The notes under the pieces: generated by a model
What the model was told of the DNA's origin: nothing
Databases searched by the model: none
What the model saw: only the letters and a program-made list of their open reading frames with translations
Shown: piece by piece, positions 30,304 to 34,256 of the stretch
Numbering within the stretch: position 1 is the first letter of the stretch
Layout of the letters: each line of letters starts with the position of its first letter
From: Dehalococcoidia bacterium
GTDB lineage: Bacteria > Chloroflexota > Dehalococcoidia > Lucifugimonadales > UBA3495
Reading direction: 5' to 3'
DNA length: 64,000 nt
Assembly: GCA_965220055.1 (NCBI GenBank)
Contig: CBDCPE010000003.1
Location: 19,374-83,373 of the forward strand
Translations under genes and position numbers: made by a program

Positions 30304-30525
30304 CTATGTCTTCTTGGCGCGGTTGTTTGGCGTACTTGCGTTTTCAGGAGGCTGCCACTGTTTGGGAATTCTGTCGCCGGTTTGGGACCGCGGCGGGCCG
30401 CTCATACGCCCAAGTTGCACAGATGCAGCATCGCGCAGGTCAATCTCACCGGTAACGCTATCAGGCTCACCGGTAACGCTATCCGGATTTTGTTCGGGAG
30501 TAAGTTCGTCTTGCTCGTTAGGCAC
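30304..30525 (-). CDS. Hypothetical small protein (73 aa) with a tandem PDSVTGE repeat
   Basis: GTG start. Shares a K-(K/Q)-W-Q-x-P...(S/T)-T-P motif with the adjacent 54-aa ORF despite divergent DNA, which supports coding. Confidence 0.35.
   Translation of the reverse strand: MPNEQDELTPEQNPDSVTGEPDSVTGEIDLRDAASVQLGRMSGPPRSQTGDRIPKQWQPPENASTPNNRAKKT
30445..30486. repeat. 21-bp tandem duplication (one mismatch)
   Basis: CTCACCGGTAACGCTATCAGG followed by CTCACCGGTAACGCTATCCGG. Confidence 0.85.
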
Positions 30526-30536
30526 AATTGAATCCC

Positions 30537-30701
30537 CTAGTCGGCGTTTTGCTTCTCACGGTCGGCGGGTGTGGTTTGTCCAGTGGGCGTCTGCCATTTC
30601 TTGACCTTGCCACCGGCCGGCCTCGGCATAGGCCGGCCACCTCCACGTCGCTTTTCCATCGGAACCGTCCTTTCATGCGGATCCAATTCTTTCTCTTTCA
30701 T
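30537..30701 (-). CDS. Hypothetical small basic protein (54 aa, not in the supplied ORF track)
   Basis: Hand-translated: MKEKELDPHERTVPMEKRRGGGRPMPRPAGGKVKKWQTPTGQTTPADREKQNAD*. Its ATG overlaps the TAA of the upstream 234-aa gene (TAATG). Confidence 0.35.
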   Translation of the reverse strand: MKEKELDPHERTVPMEKRRGGGRPMPRPAGGKVKKWQTPTGQTTPADREKQNAD

Positions 30702-31405
30702 TAGGTTGAAGCCTCCTCATTGACGTGCACGGTCCTTCTATACCATCCTTCCGCTTCTCGGGGTTCCGATGCGTTGGAAACCCATGCCGATACGACTATA
30801 GCCGTGATTTCAGCTGGAATGATGAAATCATACGTCATCTGCTCCGTCTCATTGGGTTCAATCACTATCCCTTCCGTTACAGTCTCTTCTTTCCTCAGGC
30901 GCCACGGGAATTCGATATCCTGCTCGCCGGCCGGAGTGCCGTCAAACTCGCGCTCCATTTCCTGAATGGTCTCGTCGTCGTACGGCGACACCACTTTCAA
31001 CTGCCAAATTACGCGATTGACGCGGCATAGACCTGTTCCGGTATTCTTCGAGTTGAGGGCAACCATCACGGCGTCGTATTGGAGGCTTGCCGGCACTCGT
31101 ACCACCTGTAGTTCCATCGTGAGGTTAGGGATGTGTTCTCTACCCCGCCGGTAGTTGCGGTCGGCTACGTAAAGCGTCACCAAGAACGCCGCCGCCGTTC
31201 CAGACGTGCCGGCCACCATTCCCAGCCTTCCAACATCAATGGTAGCAATACCTCGGGGCGGAGTGCTATCTACCCAAGTATAGACGTTCTGCGTAACAGC
31301 AATAGCCAGGGTGATCGCCAGTGAAATTGCAAAGGAGATGATTGCCGCTTTGGGGATCCAACTGCCGGCGATAGCATCCAGAACGTTTCTGATTTCGCTC
31401 CCCAT
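30701..31405 (-). CDS. Hypothetical membrane protein (two N-terminal TM helices plus a soluble C-terminal domain)
   Basis: 234 aa in a lower-GC region. TM segments AAIISFAISLAITLAIAV and LGMVAGTSGTAAAFLVTLYVA. No recognised motif. Confidence 0.6.
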   Translation of the reverse strand: MGSEIRNVLDAIAGSWIPKAAIISFAISLAITLAIAVTQNVYTWVDSTPPRGIATIDVGRLGMVAGTSGTAAAFLVTLYVADRNYRRGREHIPNLTMELQVVRVPASLQYDAVMVALNSKNTGTGLCRVNRVIWQLKVVSPYDDETIQEMEREFDGTPAGEQDIEFPWRLRKEETVTEGIVIEPNETEQMTYDFIIPAEITAIVVSAWVSNASEPREAEGWYRRTVHVNEEAST

Positions 31406-31504
31406 ACCGCAATTCTAACTCTGCCGGCGCCGCATGGCTTTCTCCGTGTGTATCTATCGACGCGGCACACTGGCTGTCGACCTCGGTCTACAGCAGAAAA
31501 GACG

Positions 31505-32125
31505 TTACCTGCTATTGTACCCCGGTCCACGAAGCGGACTGTCGAAGTGTTCGCCCATCTTCAACGTGCCCATGATGTCGTTCCACACCGCCTCGGCGCG
31601 ATCGGCGTCCTCGGGCCAGTAGCTGAACGTGAGCAACGCGTGGATGGATTTCCTGTGATCCCTGGTGATGGCGATGCGAGAATGGGCCGTGCGGTTTTCC
31701 CCAGGGTCGATAAACTCGGTCTCCACCCAAGCCATTTCCAGGTCGCCAAACTTGATGGTGATGGGAGCGCCCACCACGGGCGCGCCTCTGCGCTTGCGCC
31801 TGCGGGTTGCCCTGCTTGCCCGATCGATAGGCTCATCAGTCGTGACGGTTTTGATCAACTCGGATAACGGCAGGTCACTCCAGTCGATCTGGAGGCCGTA
31901 GGCTCCGGCGTAAATCACCGTCACCTCCAGGATCATCGTGTCGTCGGGATGTTGGGCGTCGCGGAATTTTACCGACTTGCGGGAGGGTTCCACCAACCAG
32001 TGCTGGGGGATTTCAAAACGCAGCGCGCCGCGGTCGGCGACGAAAACCTTGTTGCCCGGCTTGGCCGTCCACCCGTGGTTCTCCGGAAGGTTTAAAACCT
32101 GCTTGCGCCAGTTCTGGTTGTCCAC
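31505..32125 (-). CDS. Hypothetical protein (206 aa)
   Basis: Clean ORF divergent from the methyltransferase gene. Contains an internal basic patch RRRKRR. No recognised motif. Confidence 0.55.
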   Translation of the reverse strand: MDNQNWRKQVLNLPENHGWTAKPGNKVFVADRGALRFEIPQHWLVEPSRKSVKFRDAQHPDDTMILEVTVIYAGAYGLQIDWSDLPLSELIKTVTTDEPIDRASRATRRRKRRGAPVVGAPITIKFGDLEMAWVETEFIDPGENRTAHSRIAITRDHRKSIHALLTFSYWPEDADRAEAVWNDIMGTLKMGEHFDSPLRGPGYNSR

Positions 32126-32358
32126 CGGTCACCTGCCTCAGGTTCGAGCTGTCTATTAGGTATGGAGGCATTATAGACGATGCCGCCGACGGGGTTGCCG
32201 AGGCGGATCGGATTGTCGTCGCGTTTGGGCCTCATTGGTGACATCCGTATGTTGCGGTCTGGTAGTCGGCAGATTATGATTCGTCCCACGCGCCCGGCAG
32301 AGGCGTGCACCCGCGAAGGCACTTGCCTCGGGTGACCTGGCAACAAGGGTAAGGCCCG

Positions 32359-33678
32359 TTGGCGATGGCGCAAGCATCTGAAAGACCGTTTCAGGATCCC
32401 GCATTCTCGCAAAATAAACGCGTACCGGTTCACCGTTGGGTACCGTGGGTGGCCGGTTATTCGCAGCGCTTTGCGGAAGACGCTTTGAACAGATACGCCA
32501 ATGGGACAGAACAATTGGTATTGGATCCATTCGCGGGAGTCGGCACTACGCTGATCGAAGCCGACCGCGCCGGGCATCGCGCGGTAGGGTTTGAAATCAA
32601 CCCTTACGCCGCTTTTGTTTGCCAGACGAAGCTACGCGCCCATCGCATCAGAACTTCTGCGCTTCGACAAACAATAGACGAACTGCTTCGCTACGCGAAA
32701 TCCATTGATACAGACCAGCTTGTACCCAAATCATCACCACCGGATGGATTTCGAACCCGTTCACCGTTTTATAGCCCCAAGGTTTTGGAGAAAGTACTGC
32801 TGTTGATGGACTTCATCAGTGATCAAGACGATGAAGTTATCAAGGACGTAATGCGGCTCGCGTTCGCGGCAACTATGGTCGACTACTCCAACTATTCTTA
32901 TGAACCGAGCCTCGGTAGAAGAAAAGCTGTGGGACGTGCAGAAATCGATGATTTCCCTGTCATAGCCACTCTAGTCAAGAAACTCACAGACATTGCAGAC
33001 GATTCCGACTGGTACAGATCCAACCGGGTCTGTCTCGACCGCCCTGATGGCGTCGTTCACGCTCGGTCGTTTTTTGAAGACGATAGTCTGGAACCTTCCA
33101 GTGTTGATCTGATCATCACGTCTCCGCCGTACATGAACAACTACCACTACAATCGTAATACTAGGCCCCACATGTACTGGCTCCAGTTTTGCCAATCGCC
33201 AAAGGATCTCAAAACCCTAGAATGGCAAAACTTTGGGACCTCATGGCAGCTGGCAAGAGAACGGGCAGCGGTTGACTTGGACTCCGCCATCGCTGATGAC
33301 GAGATACTTCAGACGATTACCGAAATTGGCCGACAGAACCCAGGAAAGGGCGTTTATGGTGGCATGGGATGGGCGAATTATGCCGTATCCTATCTGAATG
33401 ATTGCGTGCGGTTTATGCGGGGCGTACGCAGCGTGCTGCGGCCCGGAGCAACCGCGTTGGTGGTGATTGGAAACAGCGTGGTACAAGGTGTGCACGTACC
33501 CACAGACCGATTTTTAGCCAGCATAGCAAAAAGTTGTGGCCTCGAAGTGACGGATATTCATACCCCACGCGAGGCCCGGGTGGGCAGCAGCATCATTAAC
33601 TCAAGCGTCCGGGTGGCGCGGGCGGGCCCACAAAACCGCCTGTACGAGTCTGTCGTCGAAATTCGCCAGTCAACATGA
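32359..33678 (+). CDS. Site-specific DNA amino-methyltransferase (N4-C or N6-A type, SPPY motif)
   Basis: AdoMet motif LDPFAGVGTTLIEA..GR.AVGFEINP near the N-terminus. Catalytic motif IITSPPYMNNY at about residue 255. Overlaps the downstream nuclease gene (ATGA). Confidence 0.8.
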   Translation: MAMAQASERPFQDPAFSQNKRVPVHRWVPWVAGYSQRFAEDALNRYANGTEQLVLDPFAGVGTTLIEADRAGHRAVGFEINPYAAFVCQTKLRAHRIRTSALRQTIDELLRYAKSIDTDQLVPKSSPPDGFRTRSPFYSPKVLEKVLLLMDFISDQDDEVIKDVMRLAFAATMVDYSNYSYEPSLGRRKAVGRAEIDDFPVIATLVKKLTDIADDSDWYRSNRVCLDRPDGVVHARSFFEDDSLEPSSVDLIITSPPYMNNYHYNRNTRPHMYWLQFCQSPKDLKTLEWQNFGTSWQLARERAAVDLDSAIADDEILQTITEIGRQNPGKGVYGGMGWANYAVSYLNDCVRFMRGVRSVLRPGATALVVIGNSVVQGVHVPTDRFLASIAKSCGLEVTDIHTPREARVGSSIINSSVRVARAGPQNRLYESVVEIRQST

Positions 33679-34256
33679 CCGAGCTCTACAATCCGCTCAC
33701 GTACGACAATCTAATGGCTGGAACGGTGCTTGAGTTTGAGCGCCGGCCTCTCCTACAACTAGCGGATGATATATCTGTGCTCGGTCCGGGCATTTATTGC
33801 CTAATTTACGCGGGGCGCTTCGCTGCGTACAGCGAAATCGCCGGGTCCGGCAAGCCGATTTATGTCGGTAGGGCGGTTCCGCCAGGATCTCGGCGCGGAG
33901 ACGCGATCAACGTGGATGCCCCCGCATTGCGGGATCGGTTACGAATTCACGCGCGTTCCATTGATCAAGCATCGAATTTAGACATCGGCGACTTCCGTTG
34001 CCGATATCTGGCAATGGAGCCAGTTTGGATTACCCTCGCCGAGCGTTTCACTATCGACCACTACAAACCCGTGTGGAATCGCTGCTTGGACGGGTTCGGA
34101 GACAACAATCCGGGTTCAGGACGATATAACGGCGAGAGGAGTTGGTGGGATACGTTGCACCCTGGTCGCGCTTGGGCAGACAACCTGCGGGAGGTTAAAA
34201 CCGTGAGCGAGGCGCTCGAGCGGGTGCAATCGTTTTTCTCTTCCGAACAGGCGTGA
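33675..34256 (+). CDS. Eco29kI-family GIY-YIG restriction endonuclease
   Basis: GIYCLIY..KPIYVGRAVPPGSRRG..RL..H..SI....NL...DF.CRYL....VWI..AE...I..YKPVWN..LDGFGDNNPGSGR....RSWWDTLHPGR closely follows the Eco29kI pattern I remember. Confidence 0.8.
   Translation: MTELYNPLTYDNLMAGTVLEFERRPLLQLADDISVLGPGIYCLIYAGRFAAYSEIAGSGKPIYVGRAVPPGSRRGDAINVDAPALRDRLRIHARSIDQASNLDIGDFRCRYLAMEPVWITLAERFTIDHYKPVWNRCLDGFGDNNPGSGRYNGERSWWDTLHPGRAWADNLREVKTVSEALERVQSFFSSEQA

What the first reader, a model, noticed from the sequence alone, without database searches (positions are those of the whole stretch)
30304..32125. Uncharacterised four-gene minus-strand cluster adjacent to a restriction-modification module
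This lower-GC segment carries four co-oriented genes, divergent from the R-M genes. In order they are:
- a 206-aa soluble protein;
- a 234-aa protein with two N-terminal TM helices and a beta-rich C-terminal domain;
- a 54-aa very basic ORF that I found by hand, whose ATG overlaps the TAA of the 234-aa gene (TAATG);
- a 73-aa acidic/low-complexity ORF carrying a 21-bp tandem duplication (PDSVTGE x2).

The two mini-ORFs share a K(K/Q)WQxP...(S/T)TP motif although their DNA has diverged, which argues that they are translated paralogs.

A membrane protein, small charged partners and a neighbouring R-M system resemble defence-island organisation, for example an abortive-infection effector with modulators. 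None of the four proteins matches anything I recognise.
Basis: partly seen in the sequence, partly recalled or inferred. Interest (0 to 1): 0.62.

Follow-up and report, generated by a model that had tools for sequence, protein, structure and literature searches.

The report
Membrane protein plus two micro-proteins cassette
Three of the four genes form a small mobile cassette: a membrane protein followed by two tiny basic proteins, found only in sponge-associated Dehalococcoidia, often beside restriction and other defence genes, and laid out like the SpoIISABC toxin/two-antitoxin system; the fourth gene and the neighbouring restriction system are unrelated neighbours.

Summary
All four minus-strand ORFs exist as described, as do the TAATG overlap, the 21-bp duplication and the shared motif.

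They are not one unit. Comparison of relatives at this site (ABC permease | 206 | epimerase) shows three independent parts:
- The 206-aa gene is a resident gene. It has a PsbP/Mog1 fold and belongs to Pfam PF27270 'Alr1449'.
- The Eco29kI restriction-modification (R-M) pair is one insertion.
- The 234-aa gene plus its mini-ORFs is another insertion. Genomes with neither, either or both insertions exist.

The real module is the 234-aa protein (two transmembrane helices plus an acidic Ig-like beta-sandwich) and one to three small basic Gly/Pro-rich proteins.
- Every strong 234 copy in the genus has a mini-ORF directly downstream.
- The mini-ORFs are under purifying selection in frame (dN/dS 0.12 and 0.33).
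- One homolog carries the mini motif fused to its C-terminus.
- The cassette sits in about 20 genomic contexts. About half adjoin defence genes (type IIG, type ISP, MTase-HNH, Hma, GmrSD).
- It is transcribed in sponge metatranscriptomes.

No Pfam, PADLOC, NCBIfam or PHROG model matches the 234-aa protein or the mini-ORFs.

Best reading (about 0.5): a SpoIISABC-like module of a membrane toxin/effector with two antitoxins, analogous rather than homologous. Function is untested.

The parts
30701..31405 (-). 234-aa core gene of the cassette. It has a cytoplasmic N-terminus, TM1 (about 17-44), a short outside loop, and a Gly/Ala/Thr-rich TM2 (about 58-87; G62, G66, T67, G69, A71 and A73 are invariant). 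A basic juxtamembrane stretch DRNYRRGREH follows, then an acidic (net -13) Ig-like/CARDB-like beta-sandwich. Proposed membrane toxin/effector.
   Evidence: ORF. 178 homologs, none with a Pfam family or a functional name. Conservation. AF2 model, pLDDT 69. Foldseek hits ApaG, CARDB, Fn3-like and TMEM106B luminal domains at E about 1e-5. Charge and hydropathy. No Pfam, PADLOC, NCBIfam or PHROG hit.
30537..30701 (-). miniA: a 54-aa basic (pI 10.1) Gly/Pro-rich micro-protein with core RRGGGRPMPRPAGGKxKKWQxPTxxTTPxDRKK. Its ATG overlaps the 234-aa stop codon (TAATG), and a GAGGAGG Shine-Dalgarno lies 10 nt upstream. Proposed primary antitoxin/modulator.
   Evidence: It is 72-82% identical directly downstream of every 234 homolog. 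dN/dS is 0.12, against about 2 in the other two frames; codon-position differences are 0.18/0.11/0.46.
30304..30525 (-). miniB: a 73-aa paralog of miniA. It has an acidic, variable N-terminal half and a basic C-terminal core GRxSGPPxxxTxxxxxKQWQPPxNxSTPxNRxKK. It starts at GTG, with an AGGGGA Shine-Dalgarno upstream. Proposed second, more relaxed antitoxin/modulator.
   Evidence: Core dN/dS is 0.33, against 1.1-1.3 out of frame. It is present in about half of the cassettes and degraded or absent in the others.
30440..30481 (-). 21-bp tandem duplication (2 copies, 19 of 21 bases identical) inside the variable N-terminal half of miniB. It encodes PDSVTGE twice and was not seen in the relatives examined.
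   Evidence: miniB sequences from other loci lack it.
31412..31417 (-). Putative -10 box TAGAAT, 6 nt upstream of the ATG of the 234-aa gene, which has no Shine-Dalgarno. This suggests the cassette has its own promoter and a leaderless start. Inference only.
   Evidence: Read directly from the sequence. TAnAAT or TGGTATAAT boxes occur at similar positions in many other cassette copies in unrelated contexts. The sigma-70 scan, which requires both hexamers, found nothing.
31505..32125 (-). 206-aa soluble protein of family PF27270 'Alr1449', with a PsbP/Mog1/DUF1795-like fold. It is a resident neighbour, not part of the cassette.
   Evidence: AF2 model, pLDDT 87. Foldseek hits PsbP at E 2e-7, and also Mog1, Tsi3 and EagT6/SciW. 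It is present at this site without the trio in G014, G032 and G020.
32359..34256 (+). Type II R-M pair: an N6_N4 methyltransferase (32359-33678) and an Eco29kI-family endonuclease (33675-34256). It is an independent insertion between the ABC permease gene and the 206-aa gene.
   Evidence: Pfam N6_N4_Mtase at 3.5e-12 and RE_Eco29kI at 1.4e-51. PADLOC MTase_II and REase_II. Absent from the same site in G009, G014 and L017.

Best explanation
The unit is a roughly 1.1-kb mobile three-gene cassette at 30304-31405 (minus strand). It consists of a 234-aa inner-membrane protein followed by two small, basic, Gly/Pro-rich, probably disordered paralogous proteins, miniA and miniB.

Proposed mechanism (inferred). 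The 234-aa protein is a membrane-acting toxin or effector. It would oligomerise through its invariant small-residue TM2. Its acidic cytoplasmic beta-sandwich is a regulatory docking domain. The basic RGG...WQPP...RKK cores of miniA and miniB would bind that domain and keep the effector inactive. Loss of the labile micro-proteins, for example after loss of the cassette or after shut-off of host expression by a phage, would release the effector.

This layout matches the Bacillus SpoIISA/SpoIISB/SpoIISC toxin-antitoxin-antitoxin system. That system has a membrane toxin with a cytosolic domain, followed by two small basic paralogous antitoxins, the first of which is the better conserved (PMC4926146). 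There is no sequence or fold homology to SpoIIS.

The cassette behaves like a selfish or defence-island element. The 206-aa gene and the Eco29kI R-M pair are separate entities that share an insertion hot spot with it.
For: Shown:
1. Strict linkage. All 16 strong 234 copies in 14 genus genomes have a mini-ORF hit within about 25 bp downstream. All 26 loci examined carry the W(Q/K/E)xP motif ORF.
2. The mini-ORFs are translated. dN/dS is 0.12 for miniA and 0.33 for miniB, against more than 1 in the other frames. Both have Shine-Dalgarno sequences, and miniA's start overlaps the 234 stop.
3. Natural fusion. In G010:C1 a 33%-identical 234 homolog ends in ...GGEQSEPTTPSGAYAQWQPPDRDTTPVFQ, which is the mini core in frame.
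4. Charge complementarity. The beta-sandwich domain has net charge -13. miniA is +4.6, and the C-terminal half of miniB has pI 11.6.
5. Mobility and independence. Relatives at the same site show all four presence/absence combinations of R-M pair and trio, and G020 carries a different two-gene cassette in the trio's slot. The trio sits in about 20 contexts, has lower GC and is patchy in its distribution: 11 of 301 Chloroflexota genomes.
6. Decay typical of such cassettes. There are internal stops in G015 and G017, fragments, an orphan mini next to a 234 remnant in L061, and a 2-nt deletion in one metatranscriptome contig.
7. Defence neighbourhood. Type IIG-like genes lie directly upstream in L018, L031 and L041. 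MTase-HNH genes lie directly upstream in L032 and L042. In L053 the trio sits between HmaC-like and HmaB-like genes. Type ISP (L044), GmrSD (L054, L019), Eco57I-like (L055) and UvrD/GajB-like (L020) genes are also adjacent. A methyltransferase-domain gene lies within 3 kb in about 7 of about 20 contexts, against a background of about 5% (about 29 such genes in 5 Mb). My binomial estimate is about 3e-5.
8. More distant subfamilies of the TM-plus-beta-sandwich protein are also followed by their own one or two small Pro-rich ORFs, very basic in subfamily 3.
9. The cassette is transcribed in four sponge metatranscriptomes.

The SpoIIS facts come from PMC4926146.
Against: - There is no functional test, so toxicity and neutralisation are inferred only.
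- The AF2 model of the 234-aa protein has only moderate confidence (pLDDT 69), and its structural matches are generic Ig-like domains.
- There is no homology to SpoIISA or SpoIISB, or to any PADLOC or Pfam toxin, antitoxin or effector.
- About half of the contexts are housekeeping or IS-rich. Sponge symbionts are generally rich in R-M and toxin-antitoxin genes (PMC5649159), which raises the background.
- The fusion is a single case.
- The mini families of different subfamilies are not detectably homologous.
- The roles could be reversed, with the peptide as the active agent and the membrane protein as its immunity or sequestration partner.
Confidence: 0.5

Rival explanations
1. Dedicated anti-phage abortive-infection system, possibly acting as an accessory to R-M systems. 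The membrane protein is the killing effector. The RGG/Pro-rich micro-proteins act as sensors or gates that respond to infection, rather than as simple addiction antitoxins. This overlaps with the best explanation but differs in the selected function.
For: About half of the roughly 20 contexts adjoin known defence genes. In five loci (two gene types) the trio lies 17-58 bp downstream of, and co-oriented with, MTase-nuclease fusion genes. In one genome it lies inside an Hma-like locus. The window itself has an Eco29kI R-M pair 950 bp away.
Against: The three IIG-linked loci are one orthologous locus, and so are the two MTase-HNH loci. The cassette appears to carry its own -10 box. At the window's locus the R-M pair and the trio are gained and lost independently. 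There is no hit to any PADLOC model, including the candidate systems. No phage challenge data exist.
Confidence: 0.22
2. The 206-aa PsbP/DUF1795-like protein works with the trio, for example as an Eag-type chaperone for the TM helices of the 234-aa protein.
For: The four genes are co-oriented. One 1957-nt metatranscriptome contig spans all four. The 206-aa fold matches EagT6/SciW chaperones, which bind effector TM helices, as well as PsbP, Mog1 and Tsi3.
Against: The 206-aa gene and the trio are adjacent in only 4 of 14 genus genomes that have the trio, all at the same syntenic site. G033, G035 and G036 have the trio but no 206 homolog. G014, G032, G020 and G004 have the 206-aa gene at this site without the trio. 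Elsewhere 206 homologs occur as tandem pairs away from any 234 gene. The GC content of the 206-aa gene is close to the genome average, unlike the trio.
Confidence: 0.06
3. The micro-proteins are the products, for example exported, processed or signalling peptides, or ribosome- or nucleic-acid-binding Pro/Arg-rich peptides. The membrane protein would then be their exporter, anchor or immunity factor.
For: The peptides are basic, Pro-rich and contain an RGG-like motif, and they are the most tightly conserved short elements. Orphan minis persist after the 234 gene has decayed.
Against: The minis have no signal or leader sequence, no Cys or modification motifs, and no maturation enzymes or transporters in the cassette. 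By the positive-inside rule the beta-sandwich is cytoplasmic (RRGREH follows TM2). A two-helix protein is an unlikely exporter. The in-frame fusion to the C-terminus of the membrane protein argues for intracellular binding.
Confidence: 0.1
4. An ordinary accessory membrane protein of unknown housekeeping role, with downstream small ORFs that are conserved but functionally unrelated.
For: About half of the contexts are housekeeping. The structural matches are generic.
Against: Adjacency is 100%, the genes are translationally coupled, a fusion exists, and partner peptides co-diversify across subfamilies. The phyletic distribution is patchy, some genomes have several copies, and pseudogenes are frequent.
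Confidence: 0.07

Closest known systems
SpoIISA / SpoIISB / SpoIISC toxin-antitoxin-antitoxin system of Bacillus (Pfam PF14171 SpoIISA_toxin, PF14185 SpoIISB_antitox)
   Same: The gene order is the same: a membrane toxin gene first, then two small genes. The large protein is about 240 aa, with N-terminal TM helices and a cytosolic domain. The partners are about 45-58 aa, basic, paralogous by duplication and end in a basic K/R cluster. The first partner is better conserved than the second (PMC4926146). Here the values are 234 aa, 54 aa and 73 aa, an R.KK C-terminus, and dN/dS of 0.12 against 0.33.
   Different: There is no sequence match (Pfam at E<=1). This protein has two TM helices rather than three. 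Its cytosolic domain is an Ig-like beta-sandwich, whereas I recall the SpoIISA domain to be GAF-like. The partners here are Gly/Pro-rich with a WQPP motif. The host is a Dehalococcoidia sponge symbiont, not a sporulating Firmicute. Toxicity is untested here.
CBASS membrane effectors with two TM helices plus a beta-rich C-terminal domain (Cap15 / 'S-2TM-beta'; PADLOC 'Effector 2TM')
   Same: The overall shape is similar: a protein of about 200 aa with two N-terminal TM helices and a small all-beta cytoplasmic domain, resident in defence islands.
   Different: There is no PADLOC hit for the window protein. Only 1 of 71 extended-family members hits 'Effector 2TM', at E 0.002. No CD-NTase or cyclase appeared among the annotated neighbours. 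Foldseek finds Ig-like sandwiches, not the Cap15 barrel. The partners are micro-proteins, not a nucleotide signal. The description of Cap15 is from my own knowledge.
PsbP / Mog1 / DUF1795 superfamily (for the 206-aa neighbour; Pfam PF27270 'Alr1449')
   Same: The fold match is confident: PsbP 2xb3 at E 2e-7, with TM-scores of 0.59 (query) and 0.75 (target). Mog1, Tsi3 and EagT6/SciW also match. All homologs carry PF27270.
   Different: The protein is cytoplasmic (no signal peptide) and comes from a non-photosynthetic organism. It has a basic disordered loop (residues about 98-115). It is not linked to the cassette. Its function is unknown.

Membership tests
SpoIISABC toxin-antitoxin-antitoxin | Sequence membership of the large protein in PF14171 (SpoIISA_toxin) and of the small proteins in PF14185 (SpoIISB_antitox) | tested here: not met
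   hmmscan against Pfam-A at E<=1 returned no family for the 234-, 54- or 73-aa proteins.
SpoIISABC toxin-antitoxin-antitoxin | Architecture: a membrane protein with a cytosolic domain, followed by two small basic paralogous proteins in one transcription unit | tested here: met
   One metatranscriptome contig spans the genes.
SpoIISABC toxin-antitoxin-antitoxin | The large protein is toxic, and the small proteins bind its cytosolic domain and neutralise it | not testable with these tools
   Indirect support only: 100% linkage, an in-frame fusion and charge complementarity.
CBASS Cap15-type 2TM beta-barrel effector | Match to effector HMMs and a neighbouring CD-NTase/cyclase | tested here: not met
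   No PADLOC hit. No cyclase appears among the Pfam-annotated neighbours in 9 loci.
Known anti-phage defence systems (PADLOC-DB v2, including PDC and HEC candidates) | HMM match of any cassette protein | tested here: not met
   No families for the four window proteins. Among 71 extended-family members there are only two single marginal hits.
Defence-island resident (guilt by association) | Enrichment next to known defence genes across independent genomic contexts | tested here: met
   Type IIG, MTase-HNH, Hma, type ISP, GmrSD, Eco57I-like and UvrD-like neighbours, against a background of about 29 methyltransferase genes per 5 Mb. The count of independent contexts is my own judgement.
PF27270 'Alr1449' (206-aa protein) | Pfam family assignment of the protein and its homologs | tested here: inconclusive
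   All 45 homologs, including a 95%-identical one, carry the precomputed PF27270, and so does the L017 ortholog. The local Pfam copy lacks this model, so the window protein itself was not scored.
Type II R-M (Eco29kI family), neighbouring genes | An Eco29kI endonuclease domain adjacent to a DNA methyltransferase | tested here: met
   RE_Eco29kI at 1.4e-51 and N6_N4_Mtase at 3.5e-12. The two genes overlap by 4 nt.

The most novel reading that the evidence does not exclude
A previously undescribed superfamily of defence-island cassettes. In each, a two-TM Ig-like beta-sandwich membrane effector is gated by its own cognate Gly/Pro-rich micro-proteins of about 40-75 aa. At least three subfamilies exist, and their partner peptides are not homologous to one another. 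The superfamily has about 337 clusters at 50% identity in a library of 1.8 billion proteins. This would be a new class of membrane toxin/micro-antitoxin or abortive-infection system that arose independently of SpoIIS.
Probability: 0.4. Interest if true: 0.68.

Novelty: new variant of a known kind. Interest (0 to 1): 0.55.

Why it matters
If the reading is right, this would be a second, evolutionarily independent example of the rare architecture 'membrane toxin plus two micro-antitoxins'. So far that architecture is known only from the Bacillus spoIIS locus. Here it occurs in uncultivated sponge-symbiont Dehalococcoidia and travels with R-M and other defence genes.

It also provides a set of conserved, translated micro-proteins of 54-73 aa that gene callers and family databases miss, together with a defined partner domain.

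Finally, it is a practical example of how one apparent operon resolves into three independently mobile units at an insertion hot spot. That matters when inferring function from neighbourhood.

The narrow host range and the lack of any experimental handle in the native organism limit the immediate impact.

Tried and rejected
- **Family searches.** Pfam, NCBIfam, PADLOC and PHROG scans found nothing for the 234-, 54- and 73-aa proteins. The only hit for the 206-aa protein was a sub-threshold amidase match in NCBIfam, which I ignored.
- **PDB sequence searches.** Profile searches with A1 and A2 gave only chance-level hits.
- **Extended family.** Scans of 71 extended-family members against Pfam and PADLOC gave only single marginal hits: Ig_TPPC8_C, fn3_5, Phage_holin_3_6 and 'Effector 2TM'. 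I did not build on these.
- **Cap15 idea.** I considered it from the architecture and dropped it after the Foldseek and PADLOC results.
- **Viral structures and mobile elements.** Foldseek against BFVD found only generic TM-plus-Ig proteins. tblastn against the phage and plasmid collections found no match.
- **Repeats, promoters, RNAs.** TRF missed the 21-bp duplication; the repeat finder found it. The sigma-70/terminator scan found nothing. Rfam and tRNA scans found nothing relevant.
- **Truncated 170-175-aa gene calls.** I first suspected that these calls in many genomes were pseudogenes. They start at Met63, behind an internal SD-like GGAAGG, so they are more likely gene-calling choices on a leaderless gene. 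G009's 'internal TGA' is simply its own stop codon.
- **Mini families across subfamilies.** HHalign of the two mini-ORF families (A3 against A5) showed no homology. The peptides of different subfamilies are therefore analogous, not one family.
- **Other fusions.** A search for more 234-mini fusions among 270 family proteins found none.
Full report
**1. Observation**

The four minus-strand ORFs are present exactly as described:
- 206 aa at 31505-32125, GTG start.
- 234 aa at 30701-31405.
- 54 aa at 30537-30701. Its ATG overlaps the TAA of the 234-aa gene (TAATG).
- 73 aa at 30304-30525, GTG start.

On the plus strand lie an N6_N4 methyltransferase (32359-33678) and an Eco29kI-family endonuclease (33675-34256). 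Pfam scores are 3.5e-12 and 1.4e-51, and PADLOC calls them MTase_II and REase_II.

GC falls to 0.49-0.57 between about 30250 and 34250. The flanks are about 0.65 and the genome about 0.62. The 206-aa gene, at about 0.60, is close to the genome average.

The 21-bp tandem duplication is at 30440-30481, with 19 of 21 bases identical. The 54-aa protein has pI 10.1. The 73-aa protein has pI 4.6 overall, but its C-terminal half has pI 11.6.

**2. Organism**

Homologs come from Dehalococcoidia/Chloroflexota MAGs. The DNA is held by sponge metagenome and metatranscriptome runs. The genome has 5.05 Mb in 4 contigs.

**3. The cluster is three units, not one**

tblastn of the window's proteins against the same locus in relatives, together, gives:

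| Genome or locus | Arrangement |
|---|---|
| G014 | ABC permease, 206, epimerase; only 117 bp between the 206-aa gene and the epimerase gene |
| G032 | MTase, 206, epimerase: R-M present, no trio |
| G009 and L017 | ABC permease, 206, 234, miniA, miniB, epimerase: trio present, no R-M |
| G000 (window), G034, G008 | both R-M and trio |
| G020 | a different two-gene cassette (one product looks retropepsin-like) in the trio's slot |

So the 206-aa gene is the resident gene. The R-M pair and the trio are independent insertions on either side of it.

Genus-wide, the 206-aa and 234-aa genes are adjacent in only 4 of 14 genomes that have a strong 234 homolog. G033, G035 and G036 have the trio but no 206 homolog.

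**4. The true module**

A profile of the mini-ORFs (A3) hits directly downstream of every one of the 16 strong 234 copies in the genus. All 26 loci examined carry an ORF with the W(Q/K/E)xP core within a few bases of the 234 stop.

miniA:
- It is 72-82% identical across loci, although the DNA is saturated at synonymous sites (dS about 1.2).
- dN/dS is 0.12 in frame and about 2 in the two other frames.
- Codon-position differences are 0.18, 0.11 and 0.46.

miniB:
- Its core has dN/dS 0.33, against 1.1-1.3 out of frame.
- It is missing or degraded in about half of the cassettes.

Both minis have Shine-Dalgarno sequences.

In G010:C1, a 33%-identical 234 homolog has the mini core fused in frame to its C-terminus. 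No further fusions were found.

The family of called mini proteins has 55 clusters, all unnamed, on contigs of the same sizes as those that carry 234 homologs.

**5. Structures**

*The 234-aa protein* (AF2, pLDDT 69):
- Helices at 17-44 and 58-87, then a 7-8-stranded sandwich with one helix.
- Foldseek finds Ig-like folds at E about 1e-5: ApaG, CARDB, the Fn3-like domains of GH3 enzymes, the TMEM106B luminal domain and arrestin. This places the domain in the Ig-like class but gives no function.
- TM2 is Gly/Ala/Thr-rich, with G62, G66, T67, G69, A71 and A73 invariant.
- The RRGREH stretch after TM2 places the sandwich in the cytoplasm. This rests on the positive-inside rule and is an inference.
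- The sandwich has net charge -13, complementary to the basic mini cores.

*The 206-aa protein* (AF2, pLDDT 87):
- It has a PsbP/Mog1 fold. PsbP matches at E 2e-7, and Mog1, Tsi3, EagT6/SciW and DcrB also match.
- Its homologs carry PF27270 'Alr1449'.
- A literature search for that name found nothing.

**6. Distribution and turnover**

The core 234 family is small. There are 178 clusters at 90% identity. In a library of 1.8 billion proteins, only 12 representatives at 50% identity score below 1e-30, while 337 score below 1e-3.

None of 71 extended-family members belongs to a Pfam or PADLOC family. The extended family is present in only 11 of 301 Chloroflexota genomes, in 6 of 172 genera. There are no phage or plasmid homologs.

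Decayed copies occur:
- internal stops in G015 and G017;
- fragments;
- an orphan mini beside a 234 remnant in L061;
- a 2-nt deletion at 31132 in one metatranscriptome contig.

Two further subfamilies (22-30% identical to the 234-aa protein) are each followed by their own one or two conserved small Pro-rich ORFs; those of subfamily 3 are very basic. These are not detectably homologous to miniA or miniB. The architecture is therefore general, while the partner peptides are subfamily-specific.

**7. Neighbourhood**

Known defence genes adjoin the trio in many contexts:
- Orthologous type IIG-like N6_Mtase genes of 919-995 aa end 17-37 bp upstream (L018, L031, L041).
- N6_N4_Mtase-HNH fusions of 584-599 aa end about 55 bp upstream (L032, L042).
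- In L053 the trio lies between an HmaC-like and an HmaB-like gene.
- Type ISP enzyme (L044).
- GmrSD/HEC-05 (L054).
- GmrSD plus HEPN (L019).
- Eco57I-like (L055, L019).
- Type IIG fragment (L056).
- UvrD/GajB-like (L020).
- DUF1848 plus IS21 (L033).

Other contexts are housekeeping or IS-rich.

Orthology of the upstream genes shows that the three IIG loci count as one context, and the two MTase-HNH loci as another.

By my count, about 7 of about 20 independent contexts have a methyltransferase-domain gene within 3 kb. G000 has about 29 such genes in 5 Mb, which puts about 5% of the genome within that range. My binomial estimate is about 3e-5. The count of independent contexts is a judgement, and sponge symbionts are known to be rich in R-M and toxin-antitoxin genes (PMC5649159).

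**8. Expression**

Contigs from four sponge metatranscriptomes cover the cluster. One 1957-nt contig spans 30221-32179, from just upstream of the 206-aa gene to just past miniB. Coverage drops in the divergent intergenic region at 32180-32340. Contigs carry no strand information, and DNA carry-over cannot be excluded.

A TAGAAT box (31417-31412) ends 6 nt before the ATG of the 234-aa gene, which has no Shine-Dalgarno. Similar TAnAAT or TGGTATAAT boxes precede other copies in unrelated contexts. This suggests an own promoter and a leaderless start, but it is an inference.

**9. Mechanism**

The closest known system by layout is SpoIISABC. It has a membrane toxin with a cytosolic domain, then two small basic paralogous antitoxins whose C-terminal K/R cluster is needed for activity. 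SpoIISB is better conserved than SpoIISC (PMC4926146, read; also PMC4526809 and PMC3057836, from their abstracts only).

The trio reproduces each of these features, but shares neither sequence nor the fold of the cytosolic domain. I therefore propose that it works like SpoIIS without being a member of that family.

What is shown:
- linkage;
- translation of the minis;
- one natural fusion;
- mobility;
- defence neighbourhood;
- transcription.

What is inferred:
- toxicity of the 234-aa protein;
- binding of the minis to the beta-sandwich, and neutralisation;
- the trigger that releases the effector.

**10. Verdict**

Novelty: a new, unannotated cassette family that is a variant of the membrane toxin/small antitoxin theme.

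Interest is moderate, at 0.55.

Noticed in passing
L011 (G020), between the 206-aa homolog and the epimerase gene (about 990 bp): The slot that holds the trio in the window is occupied in G020 by a different two-gene cassette. It encodes a protein of about 85 aa and one of about 135 aa that looks like a retropepsin-type aspartic protease (by eye only). The site is therefore a general insertion hot spot for small cassettes.
   Followed up: partly
L019 7592-7806 and 8917-9131; L033 the same: In this cassette subtype, the 234-plus-miniA unit is flanked by a direct repeat of about 215 bp. The repeat is the 3' end of a mandelate-racemase-like (MR_MLE) gene. In L033 the cassette sits in a different neighbourhood but still carries both MR_MLE fragments. 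The block therefore moved together with pieces of its former target.
   Followed up: partly
window 31132 (inside the 234-aa gene): The single long contig of metatranscriptome run X7 lacks 2 nt here, which would frameshift the 234-aa gene after TM2. This is either a strain with an inactivated gene or an assembly error.
   Followed up: no
window about 31219-31235 (codon Met63 of the 234-aa gene): An SD-like GGAAGG precedes the in-frame ATG of Met63, at the start of TM2. Many database entries for this family are called from that ATG and are 170-175 aa long. This may be a gene-calling artefact on a leaderless gene, or a genuine second start that gives a one-TM isoform.
   Followed up: partly
L047/L048/L049 (G036, G010:C3, G015) and L023/L027: In a clade with 54-58% identical 234 proteins, the mini is either followed by, or fused at its C-terminus to, an extra domain of about 90 aa. 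A conserved 272-aa protein with a Topoisomerase-type C4 zinc ribbon (Zn_ribbon_Top1, 1e-9) lies just downstream. This may be an extended version of the module.
   Followed up: partly
L053 (G012:C1, about 125000-133000): An Hma-like defence locus: HmaC/DUF499 (971 aa, PADLOC 5e-57) and HmaB/DUF1156 methylase (995 aa, 8e-62). The trio and two small unknown genes (145 and 155 aa) lie between the two.
   Followed up: no
L061 6123-6338: An intact mini-ORF (71 aa, type RGGGQPEPRTPSGHRKPWKPP) lies next to a gene that retains only the last 50 or so residues of a 234 homolog, fused to an unrelated N-terminus. It is an orphan partner left after the large gene decayed.
   Followed up: no
G000:C4:1203-1817 and C4:1998186-1998800: The window's own genome has two identical copies of a distant paralog (237 aa, 22% identical, subfamily 3), one of them next to a DDE (IS-type) transposase gene. 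A third, weaker relative lies at C4:872848-873186.
   Followed up: partly
window 31780-31830 (residues about 98-115 of the 206-aa protein): The PsbP-like protein carries a very basic insert, RASRATRRRKRRGAPV, that is predicted to be disordered (pLDDT below 50). The insert varies in length among homologs and is absent from the more distant ones.
   Followed up: no
window versus G009 (L002/L010): Identity between the two genomes is very uneven across adjacent genes: epimerase 99.7%, 234-aa protein 94%, 206-aa protein 82%, ABC permease 80%, miniA 77%, miniB core 56%. This suggests recombination tracts with breakpoints inside this locus.
   Followed up: no
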